Positions 2,468 to 41,181 of a stretch of 64,000 nucleotides of DNA are shown piece by piece. The DNA lies in assembly GCA_038064835.1 (NCBI GenBank), contig JBBTSD010000001.1:234361-298360 (forward strand), written 5' to 3'. Made by a program: the position numbers and the translations under genes. The notes under the pieces were generated by a model. That model saw only the letters and a list, made by a program, of their open reading frames with translations. It ran no database searches and was not told where the DNA came from. The stretch's first letter is position 1. Each line of letters starts with the position of its first letter. Source of the stretch: Patescibacteria group bacterium. Lineage in GTDB: Bacteria; Patescibacteriota; Minisyncoccia; Phycocordibacterales; UBA2100.

Positions 2468-4222
2468 ATGAAAAATATCCTTGCGTTCCTATTGCTTGTT
2501 GCGGTGCTTGCTTCAGCAGTACCTGTTCCGGCTTTTGCGCTTACTAAAAAAATCGAGACTGCGGGGAGCCCGTACACAATTGTCGACAAACGCGACTACC
2601 CGATTATTTTCATTCACGGTGCGGCGGGTGCCGAGCTTGAAAAGAACGGTGCAAGCTTGTGGCCAGGGAACCTGGGTGGGGTAGTAAACGATTCGGCGGC
2701 GGCCCAGTTGGCACTCAATAGCGATGGCAAGACAGACTGTTGTGGCACCATCGACGCGCCACGAATCATGAAGTATGCATCGGGTTATGATTCAGTGGGC
2801 GCAGGGTTTATCTCTGTCTACGCCGGGTTCTACACCTACATGGAAGAGCAGGGTTTTGGGTATGAGAAGAAACACGACGGAAAAGTGTTTTACGATTTTG
2901 TGTACGACTGGCGCGAAGACAATCGCACTTGGACGAAAGATTTGGACAAGAAAGTAGACCAAGTACTAAAGGAGACCGGTGCGGAAAAAGTGTACCTCAT
3001 TGGTCACTCGATGGGTGGCTTGCAGGCGCGCTTGTATATGAAAGACGCAGGGCGTGCCAAAAAAGTTGCAGGAGTCATCTTCCTTGGCACCCCACACCAC
3101 GGGGCACCCCAGGTGTATTGGGCATATACCTATGGCTACAATTTCGGGAACCCAAAAGTAGGCATTACGCGCATGTGGGAGGTGATGAAGAACTGGCCAG
3201 CAGGATACCAGTTGCTCCCCGATTATCCGACTGTCCAGGACGAAAGCGGAAAATTCTGGACGCTAGATCAGATGTACAGCGGAGGCACTTTCTACAGTGA
3301 GCAAGAATATTCGCACAAAATCGATGGCGCGATGCAGAGAAAAGACTATTTGATGACATCCGGTCTTCCGAATACGCGTTTTGCAAAAGATGCTGTTGAG
3401 TTCCATAAATATCTCGGCGATAGTGTCGACAAATATCCGGGAGTGAAATATGTGCACATTGCTGGCACCGGACAAAAAACTCTGCAGTATCTCGAGGCAA
3501 CGATGGTGAATCGTCCAGGCTTTGACCTGCCGATTCTCACAATGAAGCGCATCGAAAATACCCATGGTGATGGCACAGTGGCAGCGGCGGGGGCGAAAAT
3601 CGAAGGAGTCGATGAGTATCTGACAGTTGTCGGGGAACACGCGGCGCTTCCAGGGATTCCCGAGGTCACCGGGCATATTACGCGTCTGCGCGAATCATGG
3701 AATGACGAAAAGGCACGCGTGGCTCTTGCACGAAAAGTGAAAGCGTATGCAGAAAACCGTTTGCCACAGCTCGAAGCCATGCGAAGCGCCGGCCTTTCGA
3801 GTGGAGCAAAGCCTGCTGACAACGAAACATCACTCGTCAGTATTTTGTTCCGAGCGCTTTTCTTTGGTGCTCCAGACGAGCAAAAGATTAAACAGCGCGA
3901 TGATCTGCGCCGCTATGTGGCAAAGATATTCGAAGACGGAAATGTGAATGTAAAGATTTTGGCGAGTGATGGTCGTTCCGAAGAAGATTTGTTTGCGGTA
4001 ATTCGCGGATTCAAGGTGATAGAGACAGGTACAGGTATCGCGTCACCACAACGCGCCTTGGTAACCGTGAAAGACTATGCCACATTCGAGGCGCTGACGA
4101 ATGGAAATATGGATGCGCGCGACGCGCTCAAGTCTGGTGCCATTAGCCTTTCAGGGGGCGGCCTTATTGATGGTCTCAAAACAAAAGTCTATAGCTGGTG
4201 GCTGAAGTATGGAGCAAAGTAG
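2468..4222 (+). CDS. Secreted alpha/beta-hydrolase, lipase/esterase-like (GHSMGG nucleophile elbow)
   Basis: N-terminal signal peptide MKNILAFLLLVAVLASAVPVPAFA. IGHSMGG lipase motif, then FLGTPHHGAP, as in class-2 lipase / PGAP1 / LCAT-like folds. Confidence 0.7.
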   Translation: MKNILAFLLLVAVLASAVPVPAFALTKKIETAGSPYTIVDKRDYPIIFIHGAAGAELEKNGASLWPGNLGGVVNDSAAAQLALNSDGKTDCCGTIDAPRIMKYASGYDSVGAGFISVYAGFYTYMEEQGFGYEKKHDGKVFYDFVYDWREDNRTWTKDLDKKVDQVLKETGAEKVYLIGHSMGGLQARLYMKDAGRAKKVAGVIFLGTPHHGAPQVYWAYTYGYNFGNPKVGITRMWEVMKNWPAGYQLLPDYPTVQDESGKFWTLDQMYSGGTFYSEQEYSHKIDGAMQRKDYLMTSGLPNTRFAKDAVEFHKYLGDSVDKYPGVKYVHIAGTGQKTLQYLEATMVNRPGFDLPILTMKRIENTHGDGTVAAAGAKIEGVDEYLTVVGEHAALPGIPEVTGHITRLRESWNDEKARVALARKVKAYAENRLPQLEAMRSAGLSSGAKPADNETSLVSILFRALFFGAPDEQKIKQRDDLRRYVAKIFEDGNVNVKILASDGRSEEDLFAVIRGFKVIETGTGIASPQRALVTVKDYATFEALTNGNMDARDALKSGAISLSGGGLIDGLKTKVYSWWLKYGAK

Positions 4223-4224
4223 GT

Positions 4225-4411
4225 CCCTAAGGGCACTTCCATAAATAACACCATCATCTTTCGCCCACTGCATCACCGTATACAACCCTTGCTCTGTCGC
4301 GAAATATCTCGGCGTACTTATAGTACGACTCGATATTTCACTCGGTCGCAAGGGCCGTCTACGGTGCGCATTAAGCGAAATCTGAAGCAGTTATTTACGG
4401 AAGTGCCCTAA
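4225..4411. mobile_element. MITE-like element, family A, copy 1 (about 187 bp, 22-bp terminal inverted repeats)
   Basis: About 99% identical to 40423..40609 (one internal mismatch). The ends ttagggcacttccataaataac and gttatttacggaagtgccctaa are inverted complements. There is an internal palindrome around gaaatatctcgg...cgactcgatatttc. Confidence 0.65.
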
Positions 4412-7501: not shown

Positions 7502-7666
7502 CTAGTACCCCATTCATAAAATTTTGTCCATAAAACCGCATAATCGTGGCTGCGGCTCGGCAAAAATTCCTTGCCAATGCCCCTGCATTGCCTCGGTATT
7601 TTTACCTTCGCCTCGCTCACGATTCTCCGGTTTTCTCAGGACAAAATTTTACGAACGTGGCACTAG
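7502..7666. mobile_element. MITE-like element, family B, copy 1 (about 165 bp)
   Basis: The first 88 bp are near-identical to 39652..39739. The ends ctagtaccccattcataaaattttgtcc and ggacaaaattttacgaacgtggcactag are degenerate inverted complements. Confidence 0.6.
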
Positions 7667-38850: not shown

Positions 38851-39669
38851 ATGAACATACTTGACGCGATTATACTCGGAGTGGTGCAGGGGCTCACTGA
38901 ATTCCTGCCTGTTTCTTCGTCCGGTCACCTTATTTTGGCTCGTGAGCTGTTTGGCGTTGGTATAGAGGGGGGACTTGCATTTGATGCAGCCCTTCATTTT
39001 GCGACCGCATGCGCTGTGATAATGTACTTCCGCGCTGACATAGTCGTCCTTGTGCAGTCGTGCTTTCGATTCATTATGCGTCATGAGGACTCTGCGGACG
39101 GCAAGGCTATGATGTGGGGCATTGCCCTTGCAACTATCCCCGCATTCGCACTAGGCCTTTTGCTTGAAAGTGTCATGGAAACAGTCTTTCGAAATGGCTC
39201 GTTGGTGGCAGGTACGCTTGTCGCAGGATCAGTAATTATGTATGCGGCAGAAAAATGGGTGTCGGTGGACACTAAAAGCCAAGTACCCACATTACGCACA
39301 GCGTTTCGGATAGGGCTCTTTCAATCACTCGCCTTGATTCCTGGTATGAGCAGATCGGGTATGGCTATTGCGGGAGGTATGTTTTTAGGGCTTTCACGAG
39401 AAGCGTCGGCGCGGTTTGCATTTCTGATTGCTGTGCCACTTATGCTGGGCGCCGGCTTGAAAAAAATTATAGACCTGGGGGCTGAAGGGTTGGCGGCGGA
39501 GGGAAATATATTGGCGGCGGGGATGATCACCGCGTTTTTGGTCGGGGTGTTCGTTATTCACTACTTGATGCAGTTTTTGCGTACGAATTCACTTACGGTA
39601 TTCATATGGTATCGCATGATCCTGGCGATGCTAGTACTTGGATCTATATGGCTAGTACCCCATTCGTAA
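38851..39669 (+). CDS. uppP: Undecaprenyl-diphosphatase
   Basis: GVVQGLTEFLPVSSSGHL and PGMSRSG are BacA/UppP motifs. The last 5 codons and the stop lie inside MITE-B copy 2. Confidence 0.9.
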   Translation: MNILDAIILGVVQGLTEFLPVSSSGHLILARELFGVGIEGGLAFDAALHFATACAVIMYFRADIVVLVQSCFRFIMRHEDSADGKAMMWGIALATIPAFALGLLLESVMETVFRNGSLVAGTLVAGSVIMYAAEKWVSVDTKSQVPTLRTAFRIGLFQSLALIPGMSRSGMAIAGGMFLGLSREASARFAFLIAVPLMLGAGLKKIIDLGAEGLAAEGNILAAGMITAFLVGVFVIHYLMQFLRTNSLTVFIWYRMILAMLVLGSIWLVPHS

Positions 39670-39802
39670 AATTTTGTCCATAAAACCGCATAATCGTGGC
39701 TGCGGCTCGGCAAAAATTCCTAGCCAATGCCTCTGCATTTTTCAGATATGGGGAAGATTATGAACAGCTACTTAGGACAAAATTTTACGAATGGGGTACT
39801 AG
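39652..39802. mobile_element. MITE-like element, family B, copy 2 (151 bp, perfect 28-bp terminal inverted repeats)
   Basis: ctagtaccccattcgtaaaattttgtcc and ggacaaaattttacgaatggggtactag are exact inverted complements. The first 88 bp match 7502..7589. Confidence 0.65.
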
Positions 39803-39805
39803 TGT

Positions 39806-39829
39806 GAAAAAACCCTCGAGAAGAGGGTT
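39806..39829 (-). terminator. Terminator for clpP (minus strand)
   Basis: aaaccctcgagaagagggttt hairpin with a T-run on the minus strand. Confidence 0.55.
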
Positions 39830-40366
39830 CTACACTATCTTATCTATCAGTCCCATGCGCCGTGCCTCAAGCGCAGTTACTTCGCGTTCGTCGTTCAACA
39901 GTTTGATCATTGTGTCGCGGGAGCGACCAGAACGATCTGTAAGGATGTCGAGGATTTGATTTTGCACACCGCGTGCTTGTTTCTCGCGTTCGCGCATGAG
40001 TCCCGTATCCTTGAGGCGATTGTAGGGAACCGACATGTTACTGAGGACATTATGGAAGAACATACGAGCATTGCGGGCACATTCGCGAGTAGTACCTGCT
40101 TGCACCAAGAGCGCCGCCATGGAATTGGCATAACCAATGACGCGGGTGGTTTTTTTGCCTGGGTAGAGACGGAGGGAATCATAAATCAAGAATCCTGCCG
40201 CCGCGTCGCCGCCATGGCTCGTGATCAGCACCGAAATGTCTGGGGAGCCCTGAGCTATGAGCGTACTAGTTGCGTGGCGAACATAATCCGCCATATTTCC
40301 GCACACCTCTCCGGTCAGATCGATGTGGTGGTGAAGTAAAAGACGAGCAAGTAGATCCTCTGTCAT
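39830..40366 (-). CDS. clpP: ATP-dependent Clp protease proteolytic subunit
   Basis: ITSHGGDAAAGFLIYDS, GYANSMAALL (catalytic Ser) and MFFHN (His) are present. The track ORF is extended 5' through MITE-A; ATG 40366 with a GAGGTG RBS is used. Confidence 0.8.
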   Translation of the reverse strand: MTEDLLARLLLHHHIDLTGEVCGNMADYVRHATSTLIAQGSPDISVLITSHGGDAAAGFLIYDSLRLYPGKKTTRVIGYANSMAALLVQAGTTRECARNARMFFHNVLSNMSVPYNRLKDTGLMREREKQARGVQNQILDILTDRSGRSRDTMIKLLNDEREVTALEARRMGLIDKIV

Positions 40367-40422: not shown

Positions 40423-40609
40423 CACTTAGGGCACTTCCATAAATAACACCATCATCTTTCGCCCACTGCATCACCGTATGCAACCCTTGCTCTGTCGCGA
40501 AATATCTCGGCGTACTTATAGTACGACTCGATATTTCACTCGGTCGCAAGGGCCGTCTACGGTGCGCATTAAGCGAAATCTGAAGCAGTTATTTACGGAA
40601 GTGCCCTAA
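40423..40609. mobile_element. MITE-like element, family A, copy 2
   Basis: About 99% identical to 4225..4411 (one internal mismatch), with the same terminal inverted repeats. Confidence 0.65.
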
Positions 40610-41181
40610 AAACCAAGTGTTTGTGTCAACGGGCGCGAGGAGGGCTTGAGCCACTGTCGGGTATCAAGTTTTAAATCTTTCAACTTACCAAGCTCACGAT
40701 AGCGGACAGCCCCATTTTTAAGTGCAAAATCAAAAATCTTTCGTGTAATTTCAACATCTTTAAGGCAATATTCCCGCACCTGATCAATCTTGCCTTCTCG
40801 CCACCACTTCAGCGATTGAAGGCCATGACCGCTTTTGCGCTCGCCCAAAGTACCCTCGGCAATGGTATCCAATTTGATGCGCCTACCAAGGACAGCATAC
40901 ACTTCTTTGAGTAGGTCAAGACTTTTGAGTTGGGTGAGATCGCCTGGATAATATTTATTGAGTAGCGGAATATCGAAGTGATCGGAATTAAATCCGACAA
41001 GCATATCTGCTTTTTCAAGTACTTTCCAAAGACGAGGGAGGTCGCTCATTAAAAATGAGTCGTAGGAGCCATCTTGTGAATCGTGAATGCCAACAATCGC
41101 AAGTTCAAGTGCCGCGGGGTCTGATGATCCGACATCGGAGAACTGATTCGTAGTTTCAATATCAAAGGTGATGATGCGCAT
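40606..41181 (-). CDS. DEDD-family 3'-5' exonuclease (DnaQ/RNase T-like)
   Basis: FDIETT (Exo I), HFDIP (Exo II) and YCLKDVE (Exo III). The stop codon lies in the MITE-A terminal repeat. Confidence 0.65.
   Translation of the reverse strand: MRIITFDIETTNQFSDVGSSDPAALELAIVGIHDSQDGSYDSFLMSDLPRLWKVLEKADMLVGFNSDHFDIPLLNKYYPGDLTQLKSLDLLKEVYAVLGRRIKLDTIAEGTLGERKSGHGLQSLKWWREGKIDQVREYCLKDVEITRKIFDFALKNGAVRYRELGKLKDLKLDTRQWLKPSSRPLTQTLGF

What the first reader, a model, noticed from the sequence alone, without database searches (positions are those of the whole stretch)
39652..39802. MITE-B copy 2 (perfect 28-bp terminal repeats) encodes the last five codons and stop codon of uppP
The uppP reading frame ends ...WLVPHS-stop. 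The codons for LVPHS and the TAA are the first 18 nt of the element (ctagtaccccattcgtaa). Either the insertion truncated or replaced the native UppP C-terminus, or the terminal repeat fortuitously provides an in-frame stop immediately. The intact perfect repeats indicate this copy is young. Directly after the element lies the clpP terminator on the opposite strand, so the element occupies a convergent intergenic space of only about 160 bp.
Basis: seen in the sequence. Interest (0 to 1): 0.55.

Follow-up and report, generated by a model that had tools for sequence, protein, structure and literature searches.

The report
Small transposon rewrote end of uppP
A 151-bp non-coding mobile element landed five bases before the stop codon of a cell-wall gene (uppP) in a groundwater Patescibacteria genome and added three amino acids and a new stop. 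This is a clean example of a well-known kind of event, not a new kind.

Summary
Window 39652-39802 is a 151-bp element with perfect 28-bp terminal inverted repeats, and uppP (BacA family, 272 aa) ends LVPHS-TAA inside its left repeat.

It belongs to a small MITE family. I found five copies at five unrelated loci: two in the window and three on other metagenome contigs. CTAG, or a one-base variant of it, sits at both ends of every copy.

Treating CTAG (or its central TA) as the duplicated target, and removing the element plus one CTAG, restores ...TGG CTA GTG TGA. That gives a 269-aa UppP ending ...SIWLV. Its tail length is the commonest among 119 orthologues, and the closest syntenic orthologue has the same Val-TGA-hairpin layout. 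So the insertion added only Pro-His-Ser and a new stop; nothing was truncated.

Independent proof that the tail is junction-derived: a TatD gene on another contig ends ...RVFG-LVPHS* at another copy of the family.

The original uppP/clpP spacer was about 22 bp, all terminator hairpin, and that hairpin is intact.

I found no empty-site allele and no parent transposase, so the transposase family (IS630-like or IS5-like) is unresolved. "Young" cannot be shown.

Verdict: real, a new member of a known kind, of modest interest.

The parts
38851..39669 (+). uppP (undecaprenyl-diphosphatase, BacA family), 272 aa as it now reads. The last 18 nt lie inside the element.
   Evidence: ORF list. Pfam BacA E 3.7e-77, residues 6-260. 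Identical protein P0001 is named UppP in a Patescibacteria MAG.
39652..39802 (.). MITE copy 2, 151 bp including CTAG at each end. The net insertion is 147 bp.
   Evidence: Perfect 28-nt inverted repeats. The first 88 nt are 97% identical to copy 1. Folds at -65.9 kcal/mol, z -8.7. No Rfam family matches.
39652..39679 (+). Left terminal inverted repeat, CTAGTACCCCATTCGTAAAATTTTGTCC. In the uppP frame it reads L V P H S stop.
39775..39802 (-). Right terminal inverted repeat, the exact reverse complement of the left one.
39652..39655 (.). Left copy of the inferred target-site duplication (CTAG, or its central TA).
   Evidence: CTAG or a one-base variant flanks all five family copies. Reconstruction.
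39799..39802 (.). Right copy of the inferred target-site duplication (CTAG).
39805..39807 (+). Relic of the native uppP stop codon (TGA), preceded by the native Val codon G-TG at 39802-39804.
   Evidence: Removing 147 bp gives ...TGG CTA GTG TGA, a 269-aa protein. Orthologue locus L018 ends GTG TGA followed directly by a hairpin.
39807..39829 (-). Terminator-like hairpin (39811-39829) and U/A tract (39807-39812) for the Clp-protease-like gene. Probably bidirectional, and formerly the whole uppP/clpP spacer.
   Evidence: Fold of -15.6 kcal/mol on the minus strand and -13.3 on the plus strand. Sequence.
39830..40366 (-). Clp-protease-like gene converging on uppP.
   Evidence: Pfam CLP_protease 2.3e-23. 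Called as 178 aa or 213 aa in public assemblies.
7502..7666 (.). MITE copy 1, the 165-bp near-palindromic form of the same family. It lies 43 nt after the stop of a Ham1/RdgB-like gene, just past that gene's terminator.
   Evidence: Fold -61.3 kcal/mol, z -9.7. Pfam Ham1p_like.

Best explanation
A non-autonomous DNA transposon (MITE) inserted at a CTAG site five bases upstream of the native TGA stop of uppP.

- **Family.** It is a 151-bp variant of a roughly 165-bp hairpin-forming family found in groundwater Patescibacteria.
- **Insertion.** The insertion duplicated the target, either the whole CTAG or its central TA. The native end ...Trp-Leu-Val-stop became ...Trp-Leu-Val-Pro-His-Ser-stop.
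- **Codons.** Leu and Val are kept (CTA from the target; GTG became the synonymous GTA). Pro-His-Ser and TAA come from the terminal repeat.
- **Why it is tolerated.** The repeat stops translation at once, the added residues lie beyond the BacA domain, and the terminator of the converging Clp-protease-like gene was left intact four bases away.
- **Genome context.** Spacers in this very compact genome are about 20-30 bp. CTAG contains the stop codon TAG, so gene ends are among the few places such an element can land and survive.

Shown: the element, its family, the reading frame, and the same tail on a second protein. Inferred: the target duplication, the pre-insertion sequence, and mobilisation in trans by a DDE transposase that recognises the 28-bp repeats.
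For: **Family at unrelated loci.**
- Window copies lie at 7502-7666 and 39652-39802. Metagenome copies are L007 2329-2493, L008 1399-1563 and L009 6907-7071.
- The 165-bp copies are 88-95% identical to one another.
- CTAG is at both ends of three copies. The other two have a one-base variant at one end.

**Reconstruction.**
- Removing 147 bp gives a 269-aa UppP ending SIWLV*.
- Removing all 151 bp (no duplication) gives a 445-aa protein running antisense through clpP.

**Orthologues.**
- Tails after the last YR motif are 11-16 residues in all 119 orthologues, with a mode of 14 (43 of 119).
- The window protein has 17 and the reconstruction has 14.
- Only one orthologue has Pro or His in its last five residues.
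- L018 (64% identical UppP, with partly conserved gene order) ends GTG TGA AATAACCCGCGC-TAT-GCGCGGGTT. The window's right flank reads GTG TGA AAAAACCCTC-GAGAA-GAGGGTT.

**Second protein with the same tail.**
- TatD on L007 ends RVFG-LVPHS* at the same type of element end.
- Its orthologues keep RVFGL, so that Leu codon (CTA) predates the insertion.
- The reconstruction gives RVFGLG*, 261 aa, the same length as P0125, which ends RVFGLK.

**Other copies at gene ends.**
- The stop of the Asp/Glu-racemase-family gene on L009 (probably murI) sits in the junction CTA(A)G.

**Precedent.**
- IS630 targets TA within CTAG (title of Tenzen & Ohtsubo 1991, in the reference list of PMC2170065).
- The IS630 family shows TA duplications (PMC2170065).
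- Bacterial MITEs of 100-200 bp with long stem-loops, TA termini and fusions to ORFs are reviewed in PMC2229807.
Against: - No empty-site allele was found, so the duplication and the pre-insertion sequence are reconstructions. All assemblies carry the element, and P0001 and P0121 are singletons in their 90% clusters.
- CTAG is palindromic and present at every copy. It cannot be formally separated from the outermost four bases of the repeat without an empty site.
- No autonomous element or transposase with these repeats was found. The 10 mid-sized window ORFs tested had no transposase domain, there are no further termini in the window or loci, and the public scans gave only chance hits besides the three copies.
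- The similarity to the L018 3' end is short: 8 nt plus the hairpin layout.
Confidence: 0.85

Rival explanations
1. The whole 151 bp, CTAG included, is foreign and there is no target duplication, so all five codons are imported and the native UppP C-terminus was cut off or replaced.
For: The repeats are perfect out to the CTAG. No direct repeat is visible outside CTAG in any copy.
Against: - Deleting 151 bp predicts a 445-aa UppP with no stop until it has run antisense through clpP. All 119 orthologues end 11-16 residues after the YR motif.
- In TatD the same model destroys the conserved RVFGL Leu.
Confidence: 0.04
2. Reverse direction. LVPHS-stop is the native UppP end, and the repeat family arose from, or only by chance resembles, the uppP 3' end.
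For: GCTAGTAC also occurs 21 nt upstream, at 39630-39637, within uppP.
Against: - 0 of 119 orthologues end in PHS.
- The same 28-mer ends elements at four other loci next to unrelated genes, and gives the same tail to TatD.
- The uppP-side sequence continues into 88 nt that are 97% identical to copy 1.
Confidence: 0.01
3. The element is mobile but is moved by a different mechanism: a single-strand HUH (IS200/IS605-type) transposase that inserts next to a CTAG tetranucleotide and uses the hairpin, instead of a DDE enzyme making a target duplication.
For: - The 165-bp form is nearly a perfect hairpin.
- A fixed tetranucleotide sits at both borders.
- There are three compensatory arm changes among four copies, and 8 G.U against 1 C.A mismatches on one strand.
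Against: - Long perfect terminal inverted repeats reaching the very ends are typical of DDE elements, not IS200/IS605 ends (established knowledge).
- The covariation is not significant: 44 of 500 shuffles reach it.
- This rival predicts the same empty site, so it does not change the reading of uppP.
Confidence: 0.07
4. Not a transposon. It is a conserved structured RNA or regulatory hairpin (a terminator or mRNA stabiliser) that belongs natively to these 3' ends.
For: - Very stable folds (z -8.7 and -9.7).
- Four of five copies lie at or within 10 nt of a gene's 3' end, and the fifth lies 43 nt after one.
Against: - No Rfam family matches.
- Copies sit next to unrelated genes, with either end facing the gene.
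- The orthologous uppP loci lack it.
- Assemblies break inside it, as at a repeat.
- A host role gained after insertion is not excluded.
Confidence: 0.03

Closest known systems
IS630/Tc1-mariner-mobilised bacterial MITEs (e.g. RUP of Streptococcus pneumoniae, Correia/NEMIS of Neisseria)
   Same: - 100-200 bp, terminal inverted repeats, TA at the termini, long stem-loop transcripts, no coding capacity.
- Sometimes fused to ORFs (PMC2229807).
- IS630 itself prefers TA within CTAG (reference in PMC2170065).
   Different: - No sequence relation was tested or seen.
- The host is a Patescibacteria (CPR) lineage.
- No IS630-like partner was found.
- A TA duplication cannot be told apart from a CTAG duplication here.
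IS5-group elements and their MITEs (4-bp YTAR/CTAG duplication)
   Same: CTAG on both sides would fit a 4-bp duplication of a CTAG target (my own knowledge of IS5; not tested here).
   Different: With CTAG removed, the ends start TACCCC.../TGCCAC..., unlike the GG/GA starts usual for IS5-family repeats (from memory). No partner was found.
Rickettsia palindromic elements (RPE) and ERIC/YPAL elements fused in frame to genes
   Same: Small palindromic mobile elements that become part of protein-coding genes without destroying them (PMC2229807).
   Different: RPEs are read through as in-frame inserts of tens of residues. Here the element terminates translation after three added residues, at the extreme C-terminus.

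Membership tests
MITE (non-autonomous inverted-repeat transposon) | Small size (roughly under 300 bp) and no coding capacity | tested here: met
   151 bp and 165 bp. The only ORFs overlapping the element mostly lie in flanking sequence: a 50-aa minus-strand ORF that runs on into uppP antisense, and an 87-aa plus-strand ORF that runs out into flanking DNA. They were not scanned against protein families. No Rfam match.
MITE (non-autonomous inverted-repeat transposon) | Terminal inverted repeats | tested here: met
   28/28 in copy 2. Four of 28 positions differ between the ends of copy 1, and two or three in the other 165-bp copies apart from changes in the terminal CTAG.
MITE (non-autonomous inverted-repeat transposon) | Several copies at unrelated loci | tested here: met
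   Five loci next to uppP, Ham1, TatD, an Asp/Glu-racemase-family gene and a 2-hydroxyacid-dehydrogenase gene.
MITE (non-autonomous inverted-repeat transposon) | Target-site duplication, shown by filled versus empty sites | tested here: inconclusive
   CTAG (or a one-base variant) flanks all copies, and reconstructions fit the orthologues. No empty site was found.
MITE (non-autonomous inverted-repeat transposon) | Autonomous partner with matching repeats | tested here: not met
   None in the window, nor in the genome, metagenome or viral scans. The rest of the source MAG could not be read.
IS630/Tc1-mariner-derived MITE | TA duplication, often in CTAG, and an IS630-type transposase binding the repeats | tested here: inconclusive
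   The borders are compatible with C-TA-G, but equally with a 4-bp CTAG duplication. No transposase was found.
UppP/BacA undecaprenyl-diphosphatase | Full-length match to the family model | tested here: met
   PF02673, E 3.7e-77, model positions 1-256 of 257, residues 6-260. The insertion point (codon 270) is outside the domain.
Intrinsic (rho-independent) terminator | G+C-rich hairpin followed by a U run directly after the gene | tested here: met
   Minus strand: 7-9 pairs, 5-nt loop, -15.6 kcal/mol, then a U run, starting right after the clpP-like TAG. The consensus scan did not list it. Function was not tested.

The most novel reading that the evidence does not exclude
The family may be adapted, not merely filtered, for life in ultra-compact CPR genomes.

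- Its CTAG target embeds the TAG stop codon.
- The commoner of its two end types carries stop codons in all three forward frames within 32 nt: TAG at bases 2-4, TAA at 16-18 and TAA at 30-32.
- It can therefore land in the last codons or the stop codon of essential genes, adding at most about ten residues. Three of the five known copies do exactly this (uppP, TatD and the racemase-family gene).
- The G.U-biased long hairpin might then serve as a 3'-end RNA structure for the host gene.
Probability: 0.15. Interest if true: 0.45.

Novelty: new member of a known kind. Interest (0 to 1): 0.3.

Why it matters
- It documents a MITE family in Patescibacteria, whose mobile DNA is little described. A full-text search for MITEs together with Patescibacteria found only two papers, each mentioning both in passing.
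- It shows at base resolution how a gene with almost no intergenic room absorbs an insertion: a three-residue tail, a new stop, and the neighbour's terminator preserved.
- For annotation, recurrent LVPHS C-termini in these genomes mark element junctions, not native protein ends.
- It does not change what is known about how MITEs work.

Tried and rejected
- **Genome-collection scan with the repeat.** One hit, in Aquibacillus, with no partner repeat: chance. The source MAG is evidently not in that collection.
- **Metagenome scan.** Eleven loci, of which eight are chance matches lacking the outer repeat and three are real copies.
- **Viral scan.** Nothing.
- **Empty-site search.** Exact look-ups of UppP, TatD and both called forms of the Clp-like protein returned only filled sites or contigs that break inside the element. 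Homologue searches for UppP, TatD and the L008 dehydrogenase found no relative closer than 63-72% identity, so there are no near-identical genomes to compare.
- **Parent transposase.** Pfam on 10 mid-sized window ORFs gave only housekeeping families or nothing. An approximate search for further termini (up to 7 mismatches) in the window and loci found none.
- **The 32-nt stretch unique to copy 2.** It has no second copy in the window.
- **Hairpin covariation.** Three compensatory pairs among four sequences, but 44 of 500 shuffles do as well, so it is not evidence of selection.
- **Rfam and tRNA scans.** Empty.
- **Promoter and terminator scan.** No excess over shuffles, and it missed the visible hairpin.

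Full report
**What is at the coordinates.**

Window 39652-39802 is a 151-bp element. Its first and last 28 nt (CTAGTACCCCATTCGTAAAATTTTGTCC) are perfect reverse complements, 95 nt apart. With up to three mismatches the 28-mer occurs four times in the window, against none expected. The other two matches bound a 165-bp copy at 7502-7666.

The ORF 38851-39669 is a full-length BacA/UppP (Pfam E 3.7e-77, residues 6-260). Its last six codons, CTA GTA CCC CAT TCG TAA (LVPHS-stop), are element bases 1-18.

On the minus strand a Clp-protease-like ORF (39830-40366; Pfam 2.3e-23) ends with TAG. It is followed at once by the hairpin GAACCCUC-UUCUC-GAGGGUU and a U run (-15.6 kcal/mol, z -4.3).

**Where the window comes from.**

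The window is from a Patescibacteria MAG (GCA_964361175.1, contig CAYHZP010000001.1). The same organism appears in Hainich groundwater assemblies and in two Logan runs.

**It is a mobile family.**

A metagenome scan with the inner repeat returned three further complete copies:
- L007 2329-2493
- L008 1399-1563
- L009 6907-7071

The other eight loci were chance matches lacking the outer repeat. The 165-bp copies are 88-95% identical to one another and fold as one long hairpin.

Their two ends differ at fixed positions, CTAGTACCCCA... against CTAGTGCCAC... These differences are shared among copies, so they are features of the family and not decay.

Copy 2 in the window is a variant:
- Its first 88 nt are 97% identical to copy 1.
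- The next stretch has no recognisable counterpart.
- Both of its repeats are of the first type.

The five copies sit beside unrelated genes: uppP, a Ham1-like gene, TatD, an Asp/Glu-racemase-family gene (probably murI) and a 2-hydroxyacid dehydrogenase. Short-read assemblies break inside the element, as at a repeat. Rfam has no match.

**CTAG as target, and the pre-insertion sequence.**

CTAG flanks both ends of three copies. L007 has CTGG on one side and L009 has CTTAG on one side. No direct repeat exists outside it. I read CTAG (or its central TA) as the duplicated target and tested that reading in four ways.

1. *UppP length.* Deleting the element plus one CTAG (147 bp) gives ...ATA TGG CTA GTG TGA, a 269-aa UppP ending SIWLV*. 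Deleting all 151 bp gives a 445-aa protein that reads antisense through clpP.
2. *Orthologue tails.* In 119 orthologues the tail after the last YR motif is 11-16 residues, with a mode of 14 (43 of 119) and none of 17 or more. The present protein has 17 and the reconstruction has 14. None ends in PHS, and only one has Pro or His in its last five residues.
3. *The closest syntenic orthologue.* L018 (64% identical UppP; DsbA-like gene upstream, RNase-H-like gene downstream) ends GTG TGA AATAACCCGCGC-TAT-GCGCGGGTT. That is Val, TGA, then directly a hairpin within a 33-bp spacer. The window's right flank has the same layout: GTG TGA AAAAACCCTC-GAGAA-GAGGGTT.
4. *A second gene.* On L007 a TatD gene runs into the same type of element end and finishes ...RVFG-LVPHS*.
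   - Its orthologues conserve RVFGL, so the Leu codon CTA was there before the element.
   - The 4-bp model restores RVFGLG* at 261 aa, the length of P0125 (...RVFGLK).
   - The no-duplication model loses the Leu.

The same pentapeptide on two unrelated proteins shows directly that the tail comes from the junction. The conserved Leu shows that its first codon belongs to the host.

**What the insertion did.**

- The native end Trp-Leu-Val-TGA became Trp-Leu-Val-Pro-His-Ser-TAA.
- Three residues were added beyond the BacA domain, and nothing was removed.
- The old Val and stop codons survive at 39802-39807.
- The original uppP/clpP spacer was 39808-39829, about 22 bp, all of it the hairpin.
- The element therefore entered coding sequence, four bases from the terminator's U tract, and left the terminator intact.

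**Why gene ends.**

- On L009 the stop codon of the racemase-family gene lies in the junction C-TA(A)G, so that protein is unchanged.
- On L008 the element starts 9 nt after a stop.
- Copy 1 lies 43 nt after a stop, just past a terminator.
- CTAG is depleted in the window: 59 sites, against 85 expected from a Markov model and 249 from base composition.
- Seven to ten of those 59 sites coincide with the TAG stop of a long open frame.

A CTAG-seeking element in a genome with almost no spacers will therefore often be seen at gene ends. Whether this reflects targeting, survivorship or adaptation cannot be decided from five copies.

**What remains open.**

- *No empty site.* Every assembly of this locus is filled. 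The UppP and TatD proteins are alone in their 90% clusters, and the nearest relatives are 63-67% identical. The L008 protein is not in the collection at all; its best hits are 72% (unnamed) and 65% (Candidatus Kaiserbacteria).
- *No transposase.* None was found with these repeats. The choice between an IS630-like enzyme (TA within CTAG; references in PMC2170065) and an IS5-like enzyme (4-bp duplication; from memory) is open. A single-strand HUH mechanism is a minor rival. All three predict the same empty site.
- *Hairpin selection.* Arm covariation (three compensatory pairs) is not significant with four sequences.
- *Age.* "Young" is not demonstrable.

**Comparison with what is known.**

Bacterial MITEs of 100-200 bp with TA termini and long stem-loops, some of them fused to reading frames, are well documented: Correia, RUP, ERIC, RPE and YPAL (PMC2229807). 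This is a new member of that kind in a little-studied phylum. It differs from RPE-type in-frame fusions in that the element ends translation almost immediately.

Interest is modest. The value lies in the base-level reconstruction and in flagging LVPHS tails as junction artefacts.

Noticed in passing
Whole window; the two sites are at 7655 and 45947. Also L007 and L009.: - The tetranucleotide ACGT is almost absent: 2 sites against 155 expected in the window (ratio 0.01). All 15 other palindromic tetramers tested have ratios of 0.66-1.09.
- L007 has 0 against 35 expected and L009 has 0 against 25. L008, L017 and L018 are normal.
- This suggests lineage-specific restriction avoidance of an ACGT-cutting enzyme.
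- One of the two surviving sites lies inside the right repeat of MITE copy 1 (CCACGTTCG). The L007 and L009 copies read CCACATTC there, and the copy in the non-avoiding L008 keeps ACGT. This hints that copy 1 is a recent arrival.
   Followed up: partly
Window 40426-40609 and 4228-4411: - A second, unrelated MITE-like family of 184 bp, with terminal repeats TTAGGGCACTTCCATAAATAAC (4 termini against 0 expected; arms 44 nt at 80% complementarity).
- The copy at 40426-40609 overlaps the TAG stop (40606-40608) of the RNase_H_2-like gene 40606-41181(-). It ends 60 nt upstream of the clpP-like ATG at 40366.
- The 213-aa clpP gene call in the public MAG therefore starts inside this element.
- The other copy begins 5 nt after the stop of ORF 2468-4222.
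   Followed up: partly
Window 39751-39807: Inside copy 2, a Shine-Dalgarno-like GGGGAAG precedes an ATG at 39760. This opens a 15-codon frame (MNSYLGQNFTNGVLV*) that reads outward through the right repeat and stops at the old uppP TGA (39805-39807). Probably chance, but it is an outward-facing start signal in the part of copy 2 that has no counterpart in other copies.
   Followed up: no
Alignment of window 7502-7666(-), L007 2329-2493, L008 1399-1563 and L009 6907-7071: On one strand of the 165-bp hairpin, nearly all arm mismatches are G.U wobbles: 8 G.U against 1 C.A and 1 A.G. There are also three compensatory pair changes, and 99.2% of cells are paired. On the opposite strand the wobbles become A.C mismatches (fold -61 against about -87 kcal/mol). 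This may reflect RNA-level selection on one transcript orientation or a strand-biased mutation process. Four sequences are too few to say.
   Followed up: partly
L003, L004 (ends at 3846); L019 (end at 2306): Logan unitig assemblies stop 11-45 nt inside the element at both the uppP and TatD loci. This is as expected where a 31-mer becomes shared between copies. It is a practical sign that these MITEs fragment short-read assemblies of this organism.
   Followed up: yes
L008 (OFQY01013259.1), 1399-1563: A copy 88-90% identical to the others sits in a contig with 58% G+C and normal ACGT content. The contig's dehydrogenase has best hits at 72% (unnamed) and 65% (Candidatus Kaiserbacteria). The family is therefore shared by at least two distinct Patescibacteria lineages, which implies horizontal spread or old ancestry.
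   Followed up: partly
Window 39630-39637 and 39651-39658: The 8-mer GCTAGTAC occurs twice, 21 nt apart: once in native uppP sequence and once at the element junction. It is probably coincidence, and the flanks of the other copies show no extended target consensus.
   Followed up: partly
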